From: a virus
Taxonomy: Duplodnaviria > Heunggongvirae > Uroviricota > Caudoviricetes
Length of the DNA: 6,870 nt
Strand: one strand, 5' to 3'
Virus record (IMG/VR): IMGVR_UViG_2681813268_000003
Coordinates: 1 to 6,870 of that record
The notes under the pieces were generated by a model, which saw only the letters and a list, made by a program, of their open reading frames with translations, ran no database searches and was not told where the DNA came from. This document shows, piece by piece, positions 63-6,727 of the stretch. Every line of letters starts with the position of its first letter. Position 1 is the stretch's first letter. Made by a program: the position numbers and the translations under genes.

Positions 63-565
63 TTGTTGACCACTTCAGTTACAAACGAGCGAGTAACAAA
101 AATACGCGAACTGAAACGAAAAGGTAACGCTGCCAGCGTTACACAAACGGATCAAAAAGCGTTACCAGAGGAAGAGGAAGAGGAAGAGGAAGAGGAAGAG
201 GAAGAGGAAGAGGAAGATCTAAATACTGATCTCCCCCTCGCCAAAAACGAGCGTCTAAAAAATTCGAGCCGGAGGCTATTGAGCTGCCCGATTGGTTGCC
301 GGAAACACTCTGGCATGAGTGGGTCCGGTTCAGACAGGCATTGCGAAAACCGATTCGAACGGAGCAGGGCGCTAACGGGGCGATACGGGAACTGGAAAAA
401 TTCCGTCAGCAGGGTTTTACACCTGAGCAGGTGATTCGACACAGCATCGCCAATGAATACCAGGGCCTGTTCGCGCCGAAAGGTGTTCGGCCTGAGACGT
501 TGCTCCGACAGGTTAACACCGTCTCGTTGCCGGACAGTGCGATCCCGCCAGGCTTCAGGGGGTAA
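63..565 (+). pseudogene. DnaT-like primosomal/replication protein, disrupted. The C-terminal domain (about 230..565, frame 2) is intact; the upstream part including the poly-Glu tract is in frame 3, and all three frames have stops before nt 127
   Basis: Frame-2 translation ends ...VNTVSLPDSAIPPGFRG, which matches my recollection of the E. coli DnaT C-terminus (...VNTVSEPDSQIPPGFRG). Gene sits immediately 5' of a DnaC-like gene (stop 563-565, next ATG 572), as in dnaT-dnaC. Frames 3 and 2 are joined by a 1-nt shift at the C5 run 233-237; adding one C gives a continuous ORF 63..565. Only TTG starts are available at 63/66. Confidence 0.5.
168..215 (+). repeat. (GAGGAA)x8 perfect hexanucleotide repeat encoding 16 consecutive Glu in frame 3
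   Basis: Direct reading of the sequence: 48 nt of uninterrupted GAG GAA codons. Confidence 0.95.
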
Positions 566-2169: not shown

Positions 2170-2255
2170 TTAAATTTAGCACTGTTAAAAATTTAATCCT
2201 TAACCGGAGGGATTTCTGCACCCTCAAATCATCAGGAGACCACCCGAAAGGGCGG
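1942..2255 (+). repeat. Copy A of a 314-bp near-exact direct repeat (zinc-ribbon gene 3' half plus downstream intergenic); partner at 4185..4498
   Basis: Base-by-base comparison: identical except 2242 a vs 4485 g. A further 13 bp (1928-1940) match 4166-4178 just before the N gap. Confidence 0.95.
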
Positions 2256-2316
2256 GGAGCAGTCACACATCTGTTTCCGATAGCCCCGTTCTAATGCTAC
2301 ACTCTTTGATATTTTT

Positions 2317-3003
2317 ATGACCCCAATAAACATATTTATGACAGTTGCTGATTTCAAACGGCCCAAATTGGAGCTCCCAAACGGGGCAAACAAACTACTA
2401 CTGCACTCTTGCTGTGCTCCATGTTCCGGTGAGGTGATGGAGGCGCTTCAGGCCTCGGGAATCGACTACACCATCTTTTTCTACAACCCGAACATTCATC
2501 CTCAGAAAGAGTATTTAATTCGTAAGGATGAGAATATTCGCTTTGCTGAACAACACGGCGTGCCGTTTATTGATGCTGATTACGACACAGACAACTGGTT
2601 TGAACGAGCCAAAGGAATGGAATGGGAGCCCGAACGAGGGATCCGTTGCACCATGTGTTTTGACATGCGTTTTGAGCGGACAGCGCTGTACGCCGCTGAA
2701 AATGGTTTCAGTGTGATCAGCAGTTCACTGGGCATTTCACGCTGGAAAAATATGCAGCAGGTTAACGACTGTGGGCGGCGAGCCGTCGCGCATTATCCGG
2801 GCATGGTGTACTGGGATTATAACTGGCGCAAGCAGGGCGGCTCGTCCCGTATGATTGAAATCAGCAAGCGCGAAAAATTCTATCAGCAGGAATATTGTGG
2901 CTGTGTGTATTCTCTGCGCGATACCAATCTACACCGCAAATCTCAGGGACGCCCTCTTATCAAAATTGGTCAACTCCACTACGGTAAAGAAGAGAAGGAG
3001 TGA
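2317..3003 (+). CDS. queH: QueH-like protein (DUF208 family, putative B12-independent epoxyqueuosine reductase)
   Basis: 228-aa ORF with N-proximal [11 protein letters not shown] motif and additional conserved Cys (CTMCFD, EYCGCVY), which I recognise as DUF208/QueH hallmarks. No obvious SD; alternative start ATG 2338. Confidence 0.7.
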
Positions 3004-3057: not shown

Positions 3058-3072
3058 TGCGGGTGCTTGAGG
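3058..3072 (+). promoter_or_regulatory. tac-like 5' element of hok mRNA copy 1 (TGCGGGTGCTTGAGG), complementary to the fbi-like 3' element at 3443..3458
   Basis: 15 bp pair with 3443-3458 (CCTCAACGCACCCGCA) with one bulged C. Same 5'/3' fold-back architecture as described for plasmid R1 hok mRNA. Copy 2 equivalents at 6400-6414 and 6779-6794. Confidence 0.55.
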
Positions 3073-3104
3073 CTATCTGCTTCAGGCATGAACACCAAAA
3101 GGCA

Positions 3105-3182
3105 GATAGAGAAAAGCCCCAGTTAACATTACGCGTCCGGCAAGACGCTTAACATTAATCTGAGGCCAATTTCATGCTTTGC
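3105..3182 (-). ncRNA. Putative Sok-like antisense RNA of hok locus 1 (extent approximate)
   Basis: Inferred by analogy to hok/sok. Minus strand has -35-like TTGCCT (complement of 3212-3217) and weak -10-like TAACCT (complement of 3189-3194) with 17-nt spacing, pointing transcription antisense across the mok start (3174). 3' end not defined. Confidence 0.25.
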
Positions 3183-3386
3183 ACATGTAGGTTAGCCTCT
3201 TACATGCCGAAAGGCAAGGAGAAGCAGGCTATGAAGCAGCAAAAGGCGATGTTAATCGCCCTGATCGTCATCTGTTTAACCGTCATAGTGACGGCACTGG
3301 TAACGAGGAAAGACCTCTGTGAGGTACGAATCCGAACCGGCCAGACGGAGGTCGCTGTCTTCGTAGACTACGAATCCAGGAAGTAA
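3174..3386 (+). CDS. mok: Mok-like regulatory ORF, in frame with and containing hok (70 aa)
   Basis: ATG 3174, same frame as hok. Same in-frame arrangement as I recall for E. coli MokC/HokC. Confidence 0.5.
   Translation: MLCTCRLASYMPKGKEKQAMKQQKAMLIALIVICLTVIVTALVTRKDLCEVRIRTGQTEVAVFVDYESRK
3231..3386 (+). CDS. hok: Hok/Gef-family type I toxin (51 aa, single TM helix)
   Basis: MKQQKAMLIALIVICLTVIVTALVTRKDLCEVRIRTGQTEVAVFVDYESRK is near-identical to recalled HokD/HokC sequences. SD AAGGAG 3215-3220 before ATG 3231. Confidence 0.9.
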   Translation: MKQQKAMLIALIVICLTVIVTALVTRKDLCEVRIRTGQTEVAVFVDYESRK

Positions 3387-3635: not shown

Positions 3636-3923
3636 ATGAAAATCGAAGAATTGCGTGAAATTTTTAGTGAAAATGGCCTCTATGCTGTGCGCGTTGAGAA
3701 TGGAGCGATTGTCAGCCATTGCCGCATTAGATGTTTGCAATCTCAACAAAGGAAGAGCGGTGCTGTGTTATTTTATTTTTGTAATGGACTTCTGACGGAC
3801 GGTTTTATTTTGCGTGAGGACGAATTTGTCACATCATTACGGGTTTTGAAAGAGATTGGTTTTAAGGCTGGTTTTCTGCTTTTGCTGAAGAATAAACTCA
3901 TCTACAATCTTGAGCAGGATTGA
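3636..3923 (+). CDS. Hypothetical protein (95 aa)
   Basis: ORF with SD GGAAGGA 3621-3627, 8 nt before ATG 3636. No recognised motif. Confidence 0.55.
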   Translation: MKIEELREIFSENGLYAVRVENGAIVSHCRIRCLQSQQRKSGAVLFYFCNGLLTDGFILREDEFVTSLRVLKEIGFKAGFLLLLKNKLIYNLEQD

Positions 3924-3961
3924 ACTCCTGCTGTGTAACACCGTGCCACCGGAGAAAGCCG

Positions 3962-4178
3962 ATGGCACATATACAACTGGTCAAACAAACCTCTTCCGGA
4001 TTACTTCTCCCGGCGACGCCGGAGAGTTGCGATTTTCTGCATCAAATCAAAATAGGTGAGTGGATACACGCAGACTTTAAGCGTGTGTGTAACTACGCAT
4101 TCCACAAGCGTTTTTTCAAACTCCTGCAACTGGGTTTCGATTACTGGACTCCGGTCGGTGGGGCGATCACGCCTCTGT
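3962..4178 (+). CDS. Phage nin-region protein, 3'-truncated at the N gap (possibly DUF1367-like, tentative)
   Basis: ATG 3962 preceded by GGAGA 3951-3955. Translation MAHIQLVKQTSSGLLLPATPESCDFLHQIKIGEWIHADFKRVCNYAFHKRFFKLLQLGFDYWTPVGG... runs into the N run at 4179. Family assignment is from memory only. Confidence 0.5.
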
Positions 4179-4184
4179 NNNNNN
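4179..4184. other. Run of 6 N: assembly/scaffold gap of unknown true length
   Basis: Literal nnnnnn in the sequence; flanks correspond to positions 1940 and 1942 of the upstream repeat copy. Confidence 0.95.
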
Positions 4185-4412
4185 CGGGTTGACGAAAAAG
4201 AGCGTCAGGTCCGCTGTAAAATCTGCGGTGCGGTTGTGGAGCCGTTTGACTGGATGCTCTCTGTGGCAAAAAGAGAAACCAGACTGGCAGATGATGTAAG
4301 GCTATTGCGCCAGGAGGAACAGGAAAGGCGGAGAAATATAGAAAAGCTGATACAGATTGAGCGTAACGCGAAAGCGCGGATACGCAGGGCGACAAAATCC
4401 AGAACTGAATAA
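4185..4412 (+). CDS. 5'-truncated second copy of the zinc-ribbon/coiled-coil protein (3' 228 nt identical to 1942..2169)
   Basis: Frame-3 translation from the gap edge (RVDEKERQVRCKICGAVVEPFDWML...ATKSRTE) is identical to the C-terminus of the 1813..2169 product. Confidence 0.5.
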   Translation, partial: RVDEKERQVRCKICGAVVEPFDWMLSVAKRETRLADDVRLLRQEEQERRRNIEKLIQIERNAKARIRRATKSRTE

Positions 4413-4498
4413 TTAAATTTAGCACTGTTAAAAATTTAATCCTTAACCGGAGGGATTTCTGCACCCTCAAATCATCAGGAGACCGCCCGAAAGGGCGG
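4185..4498 (+). repeat. Copy B of the 314-bp direct repeat (partner 1942..2255)
   Basis: See copy A. Ends in a GAAA-loop hairpin (4482-4499) that is perfect here but mismatched in copy A. Confidence 0.95.
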
Positions 4499-4504
4499 TA
4501 ATGA

Positions 4505-4723
4505 ATGGTTACATTATTTAGAAAAAAATATCCGCGAAAGAGTAGAACAACAGAATTCCTGTTTCTCATTCTGTTTATCGTGTTGATGACACCGATATCC
4601 CCGCTAATTTTTGTCTGGATAATCGGAAAAATAATTGAGCCAGTTATTGAATTGTATAACGACGTGGTATGGGCGTCATTCAACACACTGCACAATAAAA
4701 TTAATCCGTATAAGGAAAGCTGA
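4505..4723 (+). CDS. Small hydrophobic (membrane) protein, 72 aa, AT-rich
   Basis: ORF with hydrophobic core FLFLILFIVLMTPISPLIFVWIIGKII. Stop 4721-4723 is 1 nt before the HNH start 4725. Markedly AT-rich compared with its neighbours. Weak SD. Confidence 0.4.
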   Translation: MVTLFRKKYPRKSRTTEFLFLILFIVLMTPISPLIFVWIIGKIIEPVIELYNDVVWASFNTLHNKINPYKES

Positions 4724-4724
4724 T

Positions 4725-5090
4725 ATGGCACTGACGAAAAAACAACGTGCAGAACTGCGCATGAAGTTCGGTGGTCGCTGCGCTTATTGCGGCTGCGAAC
4801 TTGGCGAAAAGTGGCATGCAGACCATGTAAAACCGGTCATTCGTTTTGATGGAAATATGCTTCACCAGGAACGTGACGATATATCCAACATGGTACCAGC
4901 ATGCCACCCATGCAATCTGCACAAGCATTGCAGTAGCCTGGAAGATTATCGACGAATTATCAGTGATGGTCGTCGTGAATTCCTTGCGTCCGGGAAAGGC
5001 AAAGCGCTGGTTCGTATGGGATTGGTTGAAATGAAATCTGACCCGGTTGTGTTCTGGTTTGAAAAATATCAAGAAGGGGCTACGGCATGA
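4725..5090 (+). CDS. HNH endonuclease-domain protein (121 aa)
   Basis: SD TAAGGAAAG before ATG 4725. HNH signature CAYCGCEL...WHADHVKPV...NMVPACHPCNLHKH. The tool ORF from 4635 has no RBS support. Confidence 0.85.
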   Translation: MALTKKQRAELRMKFGGRCAYCGCELGEKWHADHVKPVIRFDGNMLHQERDDISNMVPACHPCNLHKHCSSLEDYRRIISDGRREFLASGKGKALVRMGLVEMKSDPVVFWFEKYQEGATA

Positions 5091-5752
5091 CCACTATTAC
5101 CAAAGAGCGACTGCAATGGCTGGCTAACATTTCTGGCCGCGATGATATTGACGATATAGACGGCGGTGAAATTCGTGAACTGGCGCTTATCGCTCTGGCA
5201 TCACTGGAAGCAGAGCCTGTAGCGGAATGCATTGTTGAAGATGGGGGCATGTGTATTGACGGGTTCGGTGAGTATGTGGGTCACTCGCTGCCTGATGGAA
5301 TGCATGAGCTTTATGCTGCCCCGCGAATGCGACAACCTGATGGATGGAAAGCCGTAGCTGTAGCGTGGAAGGTGACGTTTACTCAAGTTGACCAGGAATC
5401 TAATACGTTCACTGCTATATATTTTGACAAAGCGGAAGTTGAGTGTTGGGTACGACTGCATAAAGCATGTGATTTTCGGGCAGATATAACACCGCTTTAC
5501 GCAGCGCCGGCAGTGCCGGTTGCAGTAAACGACGACATGGCTTACGCATTCCATCACGCACTGTCAGATTCATCGCTTGGCTCTGATGAAATCGAAGAAA
5601 TTAAAACCGGTTTGCGTGCTGCCTTTGCCAACGTCACTATCCAACCAGAGCCGATAGTGCCGGATGAAATCGGGCCAAACGATAGTAATACGTTTGATTA
5701 TGTTGATGGCTGGAACGCCTGCCGCGCTGCCATGCTTAAGGGAGATAAATAA
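5087..5752 (+). CDS. Hypothetical protein (221 aa), acidic N-terminus, two LYAAP-containing segments
   Basis: ATG 5087 overlaps HNH stop (ATGA 5087-5090). Coding-like composition. No recognised family. Confidence 0.7.
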   Translation: MTTITKERLQWLANISGRDDIDDIDGGEIRELALIALASLEAEPVAECIVEDGGMCIDGFGEYVGHSLPDGMHELYAAPRMRQPDGWKAVAVAWKVTFTQVDQESNTFTAIYFDKAEVECWVRLHKACDFRADITPLYAAPAVPVAVNDDMAYAFHHALSDSSLGSDEIEEIKTGLRAAFANVTIQPEPIVPDEIGPNDSNTFDYVDGWNACRAAMLKGDK

Positions 5753-6117
5753 TGATTAATCGAACCAAACTGGAGCACATTCTCGAATATGCCAGGCAGC
5801 AGAAATGTATTGGGCAACTTTGTAAAATTCCACCAGGAGATATGGTTGAAATCGTGGAAATGGCCATGCGTAAGGCTGGCAACTCTCCGGTAGCTCCGGC
5901 TGGCTGGATAAGCTGTAGTGATGCAGTTCCTGCTGAATATTGCGATGTGATTCTTCTCGATGATCTCGGGAATGTATTCCCCGGTTCCTGGGATAAGGTT
6001 TTTTGCCCCACTCGTGGCGGGAATAAGATGGCTTTTGTGGACAAAGACGGCGTTGAAGTAGAGAGCTCAACTCACTGGATGCCGCTACCGGAACCACCGC
6101 AGGAGGTGAATCAATGA
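5752..6117 (+). CDS. DUF551-like phage protein (121 aa)
   Basis: ATG 5752 overlaps previous stop (TAATG). C-terminal ...THWMPLPEPPQE and WISCSDAVPAEY... resemble the DUF551 pattern found in lambdoid nin regions (from memory). Confidence 0.7.
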   Translation: MINRTKLEHILEYARQQKCIGQLCKIPPGDMVEIVEMAMRKAGNSPVAPAGWISCSDAVPAEYCDVILLDDLGNVFPGSWDKVFCPTRGGNKMAFVDKDGVEVESSTHWMPLPEPPQEVNQ

Positions 6118-6233: not shown

Positions 6234-6445
6234 GAAGGAAACAAAACAGAAACAGCAATTGCCGTTACCTGTTGTTACCATGGCAAGTAAACGTATCTCA
6301 GGCGAGCGCATTGCGCCGTTCTGACGCAGATAAACTAGCCTGGATAGATGGTGCTGGCAATAAAAAATAGCGTTTTCTTATCGGTGTCGGTAAGATTGCT
6401 GCGGGTGCTTGAGGCTGTCTGCCTCGGGTATGTCACTGTAAGGCA

Positions 6446-6523
6446 GACAGAGAAAAGCCCCAGTTAACATTACGCGTCCTGCAAGACGCTTAACATTAAT
6501 CTGAGGCCCAATCTATGTCTCAC
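6446..6523 (-). ncRNA. Putative Sok-like antisense RNA of hok locus 2 (extent approximate)
   Basis: By analogy only; the same minus-strand hexamers as locus 1 are conserved (complement of AGGCAA and AGGTTA). Confidence 0.2.
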
Positions 6524-6727
6524 AAATGTAGGTTAGCCTCTTACGTGCCGAAAGGCAAGGAGAAGCAGGCTATGAAGCAGCAAAAGGCGATGTTAATCGC
6601 CCTGATCGTCATCTGTTTAACCGTCATTGTGACGGCACTGGTAACGAGGAAAGACCTCTGCGAGGTACGAATCCGAATCGGCCAGACGGAGGTCGCTGTT
6701 TTCGTAGACTACGAATCTAGAGAGTAA
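6515..6727 (+). CDS. mok: Mok-like regulatory ORF, in frame with and containing hok copy 2 (70 aa)
   Basis: ATG 6515, same architecture as locus 1. N-terminus differs (MSHKCRLASYV vs MLCTCRLASYM). Confidence 0.5.
   Translation: MSHKCRLASYVPKGKEKQAMKQQKAMLIALIVICLTVIVTALVTRKDLCEVRIRIGQTEVAVFVDYESRE
6572..6727 (+). CDS. hok: Hok/Gef-family type I toxin, second paralog (51 aa)
   Basis: MKQQKAMLIALIVICLTVIVTALVTRKDLCEVRIRIGQTEVAVFVDYESRE. Differs from copy 1 at T35I and the C-terminal residue. SD AAGGAG before ATG 6572. Confidence 0.9.
   Translation: MKQQKAMLIALIVICLTVIVTALVTRKDLCEVRIRIGQTEVAVFVDYESRE

What the first reader, a model, noticed from the sequence alone, without database searches (positions are those of the whole stretch)
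4505..4723. AT-rich small membrane protein leading the operon
The 72-aa ORF is strongly AT-rich relative to neighbouring genes and encodes a long hydrophobic segment, suggesting a recently acquired gene. Its position directly upstream of an HNH nuclease suggests a functional pairing, but that is speculation.
Basis: partly seen in the sequence, partly recalled or inferred. Interest (0 to 1): 0.4.

Follow-up and report, generated by a model that had tools for sequence, protein, structure and literature searches.

The report
Known phage small membrane protein (DUF4014)
The 72-codon ORF is a real, conserved gene for a small single-pass membrane protein of the uncharacterised family DUF4014, carried by many E. 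coli and Salmonella prophages; it looks AT-rich because of its amino acids rather than a foreign origin, and it is not tied to the nuclease gene next to it.

Summary
ORF 4505-4723 exists, has 35.6% GC against 48.9% for the window, encodes a strongly hydrophobic segment, and stops 1 nt before an HNH gene.

Most of the interpretation does not hold.
- The protein is a full-length member of Pfam DUF4014 (90 bits; cut-off 23.2). RefSeq annotates a DUF4014 family protein (WP_000256997.1) at a 100% identical DNA match.
- Similar DNA occurs in 1012 of 5426 complete E. coli genomes, with dN/dS about 0.18.
- The AT-richness sits in codon positions 1 and 2. GC3 (0.425) equals that of the downstream genes, and re-encoding the protein with their codon usage predicts 37.8 ± 1.8% GC. 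There is no sign of recent acquisition.
- HNH follows DUF4014 in only 25 of 86 loci. Half of the HNH copies have no DUF4014 nearby.
- The gene lies mid-way in the rightward early operon of a Rac-like prophage, with no promoter match upstream.

Function is unknown. Homologues in Salmonella phages ε15 and g341c were labelled "O-polysaccharide acetyltransferase inhibitor", but a 2022 review says ε15's proposed acetyltransferase inhibitors were never investigated.

My best guess is an early accessory inner-membrane protein (N-terminus in, C-terminus out) that binds a host membrane protein.

A by-product is a portable GGAGG + GC-hairpin + ATG leader that precedes several unrelated genes.

The parts
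4505..4723 (+). DUF4014 family gene (72 aa). RefSeq annotates WP_000256997.1 at the 100% identical DNA match in strain VL40.
   Evidence: Pfam PF13198, E = 1.3e-25, 90 bits, residues 1-71 of a 72-position model. PHROG 1832, E = 1.5e-44. 100% DNA match annotated 'DUF4014 family protein'. dN/dS about 0.18.
4556..4636 (+). Codons 18-44: the hydrophobic membrane-spanning segment, with conserved P30, S32, P33, W38 and G41
   Evidence: Hydropathy. AlphaFold2 helix-kink-helix. Invariant columns in alignments down to 47% identity.
4688..4717 (+). Codons 62-71 (LHNKINPYKE): the conserved C-terminal motif. Codons 70-71 (AAGGAA, 4712-4717) double as the Shine-Dalgarno sequence of the next gene.
   Evidence: H63, N64, K65, N67, P68, Y69 and E71 are invariant, yet N64, N67, P68, Y69 and E71 show synonymous codon changes. 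The gap to the next start is 1 nt in 70 of 86 loci and -8 to +3 nt in the other 16, whichever gene follows.
4413..4504 (+). Non-coding leader between the upstream gene (stop at 4412) and DUF4014
   Evidence: No ORF of 20 aa or more on the + strand. The distal ~70 nt are conserved behind different upstream genes. No promoter or terminator consensus.
4478..4481 (+). GGAG, Shine-Dalgarno-like, abutting the 5' side of the hairpin
   Evidence: Conserved as GGAG(G) in nearly all of 123 copies of the element; one variant reads GGGGG. Unpaired in the consensus fold.
4482..4499 (+). 7-bp GC-rich hairpin ACCGCCC-GAAA-GGGCGGT, followed by 5 nt (AATGA) before the ATG
   Evidence: Minimum free energy of the 76-nt context is -22.7 kcal/mol, z = -3.97. 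It is the only conserved structure in 14 variants, and there are no compensatory changes. No Rfam match.
4725..5090 (+). HNH endonuclease gene (121 aa): a facultative neighbour, not a partner
   Evidence: Pfam HNH. PHROG 2118. Co-occurrence statistics.
5087..6117 (+). orf221 and the DUF551 gene, the rest of the co-directional accessory block. In other phages DUF551 follows DUF4014 directly.
   Evidence: (ε15: gp46 then DUF551).
2235..2256 (+). Second, degenerate copy of the GGAG + hairpin element (CCACCC gives an A·C mismatch). It is not followed by a start codon; the QueH gene starts 58 nt later.
4179..4184 (.). Run of six N: a scaffold join. What lies upstream of the leader in this window is therefore not the natural neighbourhood.
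   Evidence: N positions. (100% repeat, 1942-2241 = 4185-4484, starting right after the Ns); in strain FDAARGOS_944 the two sides lie 717 kb apart.

Best explanation
SHOWN. 4505-4723 is a genuine protein-coding gene under purifying selection. It belongs to the small, narrow family DUF4014 (PF13198, PHROG 1832), found in temperate phages and prophages of Escherichia, Shigella and Salmonella. It encodes a 72-residue protein with three parts: a basic N-terminus (net +5), one roughly 27-residue hydrophobic helix kinked at a conserved P-x-x-P, and a conserved amphipathic C-terminal helix ending in H-N-K-[IL]-N-P-Y-[KR]-E. It always lies in the non-essential early 'ea / exo-xis / nin-like' accessory region, co-directional with the early operon: the pL arm in 933W and P22-like phages, and the region after the replication genes here and in ε15 and HK225. 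Its stop is tightly coupled to the next gene, whichever gene that is (gap 1 nt in 70 of 86 loci, -8 to +3 nt in the rest).

INFERRED. By the positive-inside rule the protein inserts in the inner membrane with its N-terminus in the cytoplasm and its C-terminus in the periplasm. It would be made early after induction or infection as part of the early transcript, not from its own promoter. Translation would start either by coupling to an upstream ORF (...AAAGGAGAGTGAT[A/G]TG) or, as here, from a GGAG placed next to the ATG by a stable hairpin (a 'split' Shine-Dalgarno).

MOST LIKELY MECHANISM (weakly supported). The conserved residues inside the membrane helix, together with the conserved periplasmic tail, bind and modulate or inhibit a host integral inner-membrane protein. 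The only target ever proposed for this protein is the O-antigen O-acetyltransferase of Salmonella group E. The labels on ε15 gp46 and g341c gp23 name it. A 2022 review calls that enzyme WbaK, of the AT3 family, and says the proposed ε15 inhibitors were never tested.

My confidence is about 0.97 that this is a real DUF4014 membrane-protein gene. It is about 0.3 that it works by binding a host membrane protein, and about 0.15 that the target is an O-acetyltransferase.
For: Family membership. Identical RefSeq-annotated gene.

Conservation and selection: 1012 of 5426 E. coli genomes, 1720 places. 127 phage records, including 933W L0067, ε15, ε34, ES18, HK225 and D6. dN/dS 0.18, with variable sites by codon position 37/29/51. 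Invariant amino-acid positions with synonymous codon changes.

Architecture.

Genomic position.

Coupling and junction types.

Leader element.

Proposed function of homologues: GenBank labels. ε15 gp46 and g341c gp23 are 96% identical although carried by unrelated phages of the same host. [quoted passage not shown]
Against: No experiment on any DUF4014 protein was found: there were zero papers for DUF4014, PF13198 or phrog_1832.

The acetyltransferase-inhibitor label is an untested inference. The gene sits in early operons downstream of an annotated repressor-binding site in ε15. That fits poorly with stable lysogenic conversion.

The family is common in E. coli O157, O26, O111, O103 and O145 prophages, with up to 6 copies per genome. 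To my knowledge the O-antigens of these serogroups are not O-acetylated.

The PHROG label ('released from the phage upon host infection') points elsewhere, and I could not trace its source.

Topology and translation are predicted, not measured. The hairpin shows no compensatory changes. One copy, in front of QueH, is not next to a start codon, so a role in translation is not proven.
Confidence: 0.5

Rival explanations
1. Serotype-conversion factor. The protein specifically inhibits the host O-antigen (or another AT3-family) O-acetyltransferase, as the GenBank labels on ε15 gp46, g341c gp23 and HK225 gp57 state.
For: Labels ('sugar acetyltransferase inhibitor'). ε15 and g341c are unrelated phages of S. 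Anatum, which I recall as both removing O-acetyl groups, and they share a 96% identical copy. A single-pass membrane peptide is a plausible inhibitor of a polytopic membrane enzyme. Review PMC9558356 records the proposal.
Against: The same review says the proposal was never investigated. The window protein is only 51% identical to ε15 gp46. The gene is widespread in E. coli prophages and in phages with no known effect on acetylation, such as ES18, ε34, HK225, D6 and 933W. It lies in repressible early operons.
Confidence: 0.15
2. Superinfection exclusion or another envelope-level block. A small inner-membrane protein made early interferes with DNA entry of competing phages, working like T4 Imm or HK97 gp15.
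For: Size, single membrane-spanning segment, early expression context, non-essential accessory location, and high copy number in poly-lysogenic STEC.
Against: No similarity to any PADLOC defence model, any PDB chain or any viral fold. This rests purely on analogy.
Confidence: 0.15
3. Functional pair with the HNH nuclease, for example membrane anchor, immunity or toxin partner.
For: There is a 1-nt gap and the HNH Shine-Dalgarno sequence lies inside the DUF4014 codons. The same HNH subfamily lies directly upstream of DUF4014 in HK225, BIS08P22 and g341c. Adjacency therefore recurs in both orders.
Against: HNH follows DUF4014 in 25 of 86 loci. Four other unrelated gene families follow it with the same tight junction (gap -8 to +3 nt). 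The junction is present in 217 of 1012 genomes. 40 of 80 HNH loci lack DUF4014, and all HNH copies below 97% identity lack it. UTI89 has the HNH gene without an adjacent DUF4014.
Confidence: 0.05
4. Recently acquired foreign 'moron' with its own promoter, leading a new operon.
For: Lowest GC in the window. A 92-nt intergenic leader lies upstream.
Against: GC3 equals that of its neighbours, and amino-acid composition explains the GC. There is no promoter-like site on the + strand in 3900-5300 and no terminator at the hairpin. In other phages the gene is translationally coupled to an upstream ORF. It sits mid-operon in complete genomes.
Confidence: 0.05
5. Not a gene: a chance ORF in an AT-rich spacer, or the real gene is the 196-aa antisense ORF 4141-4731.
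For: The ORF is short. A long antisense ORF overlaps it.
Against: dN/dS is 0.18, the length is exactly conserved, and it makes a full-length Pfam match. The antisense ORF crosses the N-run and the upstream gene. It is interrupted by stops in 8 of 45 alleles and is not annotated in RefSeq.
Confidence: 0.01

Closest known systems
Pfam DUF4014 (PF13198) / PHROG 1832; RefSeq WP_000256997.1; phage 933W L0067
   Same: Full-length match. RefSeq annotates the same 219-nt gene at the 100% identical DNA match in strain VL40 and the 99.7% match in FDAARGOS_944. The protein is 93% identical to 933W L0067. Length, membrane helix and C-terminal motif are the same.
   Different: Nothing of substance. Here it lies after the replication genes of a Rac-like prophage, rather than in the exo-xis (pL) region as in 933W.
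Salmonella phage ε15 gp46 and g341c gp23 ('O-polysaccharide acetyltransferase inhibitor')
   Same: Homologous over all 72 residues (51% identity). The architecture is the same, as are the invariant P30, S32, P33, W38, G41, E45, E49, Y51 and H-N-K-x-N-P-Y-x-E. The early accessory position next to Ead/Ea22-like and DUF551 genes is also shared.
   Different: A different clade and host. The functional label is untested even for the Salmonella proteins, so it cannot be transferred.
Small phage inner-membrane proteins that act on host membrane proteins or DNA entry (T4 Imm, HK97 gp15)
   Same: Small, membrane-embedded, accessory and expressed early. This is a 'works like' analogy only.
   Different: No detectable sequence or fold similarity. 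Not a member of any of these families.
Split Shine-Dalgarno translation-initiation regions of T4 genes 38 and 25 (recalled from the literature, not checked here)
   Same: A GGAG lies more than 20 nt from the AUG, with a stable hairpin in between that would bring them to about 5-8 nt effective spacing.
   Different: Here the element is repeated and portable, precedes at least 4 unrelated genes and marks recombination breakpoints. No experimental support exists.

Membership tests
Pfam DUF4014 (PF13198) | Score above the curated gathering threshold over the whole model | tested here: met
   90 bits against a cut-off of 23.2; residues 1-71 aligned to model positions 1-71 of 72
Pfam DUF4014 (PF13198) | About 70 aa, found in enterobacterial phages and prophages, with the conserved membrane helix and C-terminal HNKxNPY motif | tested here: met
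   72 aa. Alignments A1 and A5. Hits come from Escherichia, Shigella and Salmonella phages and prophages. Only 24 representatives among 1.84 billion proteins.
ε15 gp46-type 'O-polysaccharide acetyltransferase inhibitor' | Sequence homology to ε15 gp46 / g341c gp23 | tested here: met
   51% identity over 72 aa, E = 7e-20; alignment
ε15 gp46-type 'O-polysaccharide acetyltransferase inhibitor' | Demonstrated inhibition of an O-antigen O-acetyltransferase | not testable with these tools
   [quoted passage not shown] The primary paper (Kropinski 2007) is not held in the library.
Two-gene module with the HNH endonuclease | Consistent co-occurrence of the two genes across relatives | tested here: not met
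   25 of 86 loci. 217 of 1012 genomes. 39 of 80 HNH loci, all with HNH at 97% identity or more.
Holin / lysis-cassette membrane protein | Located in the late lysis cassette next to an endolysin | tested here: not met
   It lies in the early region. The same prophage has a separate class II holin beside the lysozyme RrrD about 6 kb downstream in strain VL40 (the holin is also annotated in FDAARGOS_944).
Hok/Gef-type type I toxin | Hok-family peptide with a sok-like antisense RNA | tested here: not met
   Rfam finds sok only at 3061-3236 and 6403-6577, beside the two true hok genes, and nothing at 4400-4750. There is no Hok/Gef Pfam match.
λ exo-xis Orf73 | TraR-like C4 zinc-finger protein | tested here: not met
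   The window protein has no cysteines and so no C4 motif. Orf73 is described as TraR-like in PMC8614690. 933W L0067 is a separate gene in the variable part of the exo-xis region.

The most novel reading that the evidence does not exclude
DUF4014 proteins are a dedicated class of phage-encoded single-pass 'plug' peptides that switch off a host polytopic inner-membrane enzyme early in infection. Candidates are AT3-family acyltransferases such as WbaK, WecH or OpgC. In this reading they are delivered from a repeated, portable GGAGG-hairpin-ATG leader that both drives translation (a split Shine-Dalgarno) and serves as the recombination joint for shuffling accessory gene cassettes.
Probability: 0.12. 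Interest if true: 0.5.

Novelty: already known. Interest (0 to 1): 0.18.

Why it matters
As a finding it is ordinary. The gene is already catalogued (Pfam, PHROG, RefSeq), and the two interesting inferences, recent acquisition and pairing with HNH, do not survive testing.

It still marks a gap. The family is present in about a fifth of complete E. coli genomes, with up to six copies in STEC strains, and in classic phages such as 933W, ε15, ε34, ES18 and HK225. It has no tested function and carries two conflicting database labels that I could not trace to any experiment. A simple expression and O-antigen assay would settle a proposal that has stood since about 2007.

The repeated GGAGG-hairpin-ATG leader may be of some use for understanding how lambdoid accessory regions are shuffled and translated.

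Tried and rejected
Literature:
- Searches for DUF4014, PF13198, phrog_1832, IPR025108 and 'sugar acetyltransferase inhibitor' returned no papers.
- Searches for L0067, g341c and various 'acetyltransferase inhibitor' phrasings returned only unrelated papers.
- The ε15 genome paper (PMC2698709) is not held. The ε15 tailspike preprint could not be opened.
- The ε34 genome paper and the Φ24B exo-xis paper do not mention this gene.

Idea that it is λ orf73 of the exo-xis region: rejected, because orf73 is a TraR-like zinc finger.

Structure and sequence comparisons: no PDB sequence match at E ≤ 1, no Foldseek match in BFVD (best E = 3), no PADLOC model and no NCBIfam model.

Rfam at permissive E-value: nothing at the hairpin or leader.

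The GTDB representative-genome scan gave only 3 loci (E. coli, Shigella and a 427-bp 'Xanthomonas pisi' contig that looks like contamination), so it was useless for context statistics.

Hairpin as an intrinsic terminator: rejected, because there is no T-run and no terminator-like hit.

A small upstream leader ORF ending at the TAA after the hairpin: none exists.

A lower stem that pairs the AUG in the window's minimum-free-energy fold is not conserved in other variants.

Full report
**1. The observation**

The window contains an ATG-to-TGA ORF of 72 codons at 4505-4723 on the + strand. Its GC content is 35.6% against 48.9% for the whole window. Only 0.24% of all 219-bp windows are as AT-rich, and the window's GC minimum starts at 4499.

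The protein is MVTLFRKKYPRKSRTTEFLFLILFIVLMTPISPLIFVWIIGKIIEPVIELYNDVVWASFNTLHNKINPYKES. Residues about 18-44 are strongly hydrophobic, with a 19-residue Kyte-Doolittle mean that peaks at 2.68. The N-terminal 17 residues carry a net charge of +5 and the C-terminal 28 residues -2.

AlphaFold2 on a 17-sequence alignment gives mean pLDDT 82. It predicts helix 14-28, a break at P30, and one long helix 32-66.

The next gene starts at 4725, one nucleotide after the stop. It encodes a 121-aa HNH endonuclease: Pfam PF01844 at 28.2 bits and PHROG 2118.

**2. What it is**

The protein is a full-length member of Pfam DUF4014 (PF13198): 90 bits against a gathering cut-off of 23.2, with residues 1-71 aligned to model positions 1-71 of 72. 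It also matches PHROG 1832.

DNA identical to the query occurs in E. coli VL40 and 99.7% identical DNA in FDAARGOS_944. RefSeq annotates the same 219-nt gene in both as "DUF4014 family protein", WP_000256997.1.

- At megablast sensitivity the gene is in 1012 of 5426 complete E. coli genomes. That is 1720 places, up to six per genome, almost all chromosomal, meaning prophages.
- It is in 127 phage records. These include 933W (gene L0067, 93% identical) and many Stx phages. They also include P1-like D6, HK225, and the Salmonella phages ε15, ε34, g341c and ES18 at 46-60% identity.
- The family is narrow. A profile search of 1.84 billion cluster representatives returned only 24 proteins at E ≤ 0.001, several of them fragments or fusions.

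**3. Is it a real gene?**

Across 88 related loci the ORF has exactly 219 nt in 86. Among 44 distinct alleles the mean dS is 0.32 and the mean dN 0.056, a ratio of 0.18. Variable sites fall 37/29/51 by codon position.

Twenty-eight residues are invariant, and twenty of those show synonymous codon changes. This includes N64, N67, P68, Y69 and E71 of the C-terminal motif.

The other frames are closed. The antisense frame that forms a 196-aa ORF in this window (4141-4731) carries stops in 8 of 45 alleles. It also crosses the run of Ns and the upstream gene.

Direct evidence of translation could not be obtained here.

**4. AT-richness does not mean recent acquisition**

The low GC lies in codon positions 1 (0.34) and 2 (0.30). 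GC3 is 0.425, indistinguishable from the three downstream genes: HNH 0.434, orf221 0.428 and DUF551 0.459.

Re-encoding the 72 residues with the codon usage of those genes gives an expected GC of 0.378 ± 0.018, against 0.356 observed (z = -1.2). With all seven neighbouring genes the expectation is 0.387 ± 0.020 (z = -1.6).

The composition follows from a protein rich in Ile (10), Leu (8), Phe (6), Lys (6) and Asn (4). It is not a foreign signature.

**5. Not an operon leader**

In the complete genomes the gene order is as follows:
- a divergent HTH repressor
- cro-like HTH, YdaT and YdaU
- a DnaC-like ATPase and DUF977
- one or more accessory genes
- DUF4014, HNH, orf221 and DUF551
- Hok, DUF1367, DUF1364 and DUF1133
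- tRNAs, then holin and lysozyme

All genes after the repressor are co-directional. This is the rightward early operon of a Rac-like lambdoid prophage, and DUF4014 sits in its middle. In 933W and the P22-like phages the gene lies instead in the leftward early "exo-xis / ea" region.

A consensus scan finds no σ70-like site on the + strand between 3900 and 5300, and no terminator at the hairpin.

The window itself is a scaffold. Six Ns at 4179-4184 are followed by a 100% repeat of 1942-2241. In FDAARGOS_944 the sequences on the two sides of the Ns lie 717 kb apart, in different prophages. The neighbourhood to the left of about 4185 is therefore artificial.

**6. No obligatory pairing with HNH**

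- In 86 loci (80 from IMG/VR, the window and a few annotated phage and genome loci), the gene after DUF4014 falls into five groups. These are an unrelated protein of up to 87 aa (31 loci), this HNH (25), a DUF551/orf221-like gene (16), a 933W L0066-like gene (11) and another gene (3). The junction is tight in all of them, with a gap of 1 nt in 70 loci and -8 to +3 nt in the 16 DUF551/orf221-like loci.
- In complete E. coli genomes the DUF4014-HNH junction is present in 217 genomes. DUF4014 is in 1012 genomes and full-length HNH in 385.
- Of 80 IMG/VR loci chosen for the HNH gene, 39 have DUF4014 directly upstream and 40 have none within 1.5 kb. None of the 27 loci with HNH below 97% identity has it.
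- UTI89 carries the HNH gene behind two other hypothetical genes.
A homologous HNH (56-61% identity, N-terminal 28 residues almost identical) lies directly upstream of DUF4014, overlapping it by 4 nt, in HK225, BIS08P22 and g341c. I read this as reshuffling within a small pool of "ea" modules, but I could not run a formal association test on all genomes.

**7. How translation probably starts, and a portable leader**

There are two kinds of 5' junction.

- **Type B** (933W-like, ε15). An upstream ORF ends ...KGE* in AAAGGAGAGTGAT[A/G]TG. This is classic coupling, with GGAG 6-7 nt before the start.
- **Type A** (this window). A non-coding leader ends in GGAG (4478-4481), then a 7-bp hairpin ACCGCCC-GAAA-GGGCGGT (4482-4499), then AATGA, then ATG.

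The 76-nt context of the type A leader folds at -22.7 kcal/mol (z = -3.97).

The motif "[AG]GGAG[GA]-hairpin-TA[AG]-2 to 6 nt-ATG" occurs 123 times in the fetched loci, always on the transcribed strand. It precedes at least four unrelated genes and sometimes occurs twice in one locus.

The window has a second, degenerate copy at 2235-2256. It carries an A·C mismatch and is not followed by a start codon. Identity between the two copies ends exactly at the 3' end of the hairpin, so the element marks a recombination breakpoint.

Three single-base variants keep pairing as G·U and two break it. There are no compensatory changes, and Rfam has no match.

My inference is that the hairpin brings the GGAG to about 5-8 nt effective distance from the AUG. 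I recall this mechanism from the literature on T4 genes 38 and 25 and did not check it here. The repeated element would also serve as a homology patch for cassette exchange. Neither point is shown.

At the 3' end, codons K70-E71 (AAGGAA, or AGGGAG in the Salmonella clade) form the Shine-Dalgarno sequence of whichever gene follows.

**8. Function**

No paper in the library mentions DUF4014, PF13198 or PHROG 1832. Two database labels circulate.

- **"Released from the phage upon host infection"** (PHROG 1832, copied into RefSeq phage records). This has no traceable basis and is implausible for an early-operon membrane peptide.
- **"O-polysaccharide / sugar acetyltransferase inhibitor"** (g341c gene 23, HK225 gp57 and some E. 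coli entries). This label derives from ε15 gp46.

ε15 gp46 and g341c gp23 are 96% identical although their phages are unrelated. That presumably motivated the inference. [quoted passage not shown] The primary ε15 paper was not available.

Several observations weigh against transferring the label:
- identity is only 51%
- the family occurs in many E. coli serogroups and in phages with no known effect on acetylation
- it sits in repressible early operons

The gene is not λ orf73, which is TraR-like (PMC8614690). 933W L0067 lies in the variable part of the exo-xis region, within the insertion that splits ea22.

There is no similarity to defence proteins, PDB chains or viral folds.

**9. Best explanation**

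The gene encodes an early, non-essential accessory inner-membrane protein. I predict N-in/C-out topology. Its conserved intramembrane residues (P30, S32, P33, W38, G41) and conserved periplasmic tail (H-N-K-x-N-P-Y) suggest a specific interaction with a host membrane protein.

- Identity as a DUF4014 membrane-protein gene: about 0.97.
- Works by binding a host membrane protein: about 0.3.
- The target is an O-acetyltransferase: about 0.15.
- Superinfection exclusion is an equally untested rival, at about 0.15.

**10. Verdict**

This is an already-catalogued family member. The inferences of recent acquisition, operon leadership and HNH partnership are not supported. Interest is low, although the family is common and wholly uncharacterised, and the leader element is a small curiosity.

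Noticed in passing
window 4478-4504 and 2235-2256; also L052 2979 and 4043, L101 187 and 1259, and about 120 other copies in fetched loci: A repeated portable leader: GGAG(G), then a 7-bp CCGCCC-GAAA-GGGCGG hairpin, then TA[AG], then 2-6 nt, then ATG. It precedes at least 4 unrelated accessory genes, always on the transcribed strand, and coincides with mosaic breakpoints. It may be a split Shine-Dalgarno and/or a recombination linker. It has no Rfam family.
   Followed up: partly
window 4179-4184, with 1942-2241 = 4185-4484: A run of six Ns is followed by a 100% identical 300-nt repeat, and the DUF1367 gene is cut off at the Ns. In FDAARGOS_944 the two sides lie 717 kb apart in different prophages. 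The window is therefore a scaffold join of two prophage regions, not a natural arrangement.
   Followed up: yes
window 3061-3386 and 6403-6727: Two hok/sok type I toxin-antitoxin loci, 93% identical over 300 nt. The Rfam sok matches score 117 and 118 bits. There is one on each side of the scaffold join.
   Followed up: partly
window 2317-3003: A prophage-borne QueH (epoxyqueuosine reductase, Pfam PF02677, 220 bits) sits in the slot that DUF4014-HNH-DUF551 occupies in the other copy, behind the same leader element.
   Followed up: no
window 167-217: A perfect (AGAGGA) x 8.5 tandem repeat encodes a run of 17 Glu inside the YdaU-like replication-initiator region. RefSeq annotates the corresponding gene as two partial pseudogene pieces in VL40 and FDAARGOS_944.
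   Followed up: no
window 5040-5090 (last ~50 nt of HNH): The 3' end of the HNH gene matches many genomes that lack the rest of the gene (hits annotated 'hypothetical protein x2'). The HNH C-terminal peptide ...PVVFWFE.YQ.GA.. is also the end of the gene upstream of DUF4014 in g341c, HK225 and BIS08P22. This is another mosaic boundary.
   Followed up: partly
P0121 (271 aa), P0125 (142 aa); 933W L0069-L0065 (L004 2663-5129): Some database proteins fuse an Ead/Ea22-like N-terminus to DUF4014, probably by loss of the upstream stop codon. In 933W the DUF4014 gene lies inside the insertion that splits ea22 into L0069 and L0065.
   Followed up: no
L007 (NZ_JPLE01000252.1, 427 bp, 'Xanthomonas pisi'): A 427-bp contig in a Xanthomonas assembly carries a 92% identical E. 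coli-type DUF4014 fragment. It is most likely contamination of that assembly.
   Followed up: no
L171 4348-5517 (FDAARGOS_944): An IS3-like ISEc52 element is inserted between the DUF977 gene and the gene upstream of DUF4014 in the closest complete genome. This may explain why a draft assembly broke here.
   Followed up: no
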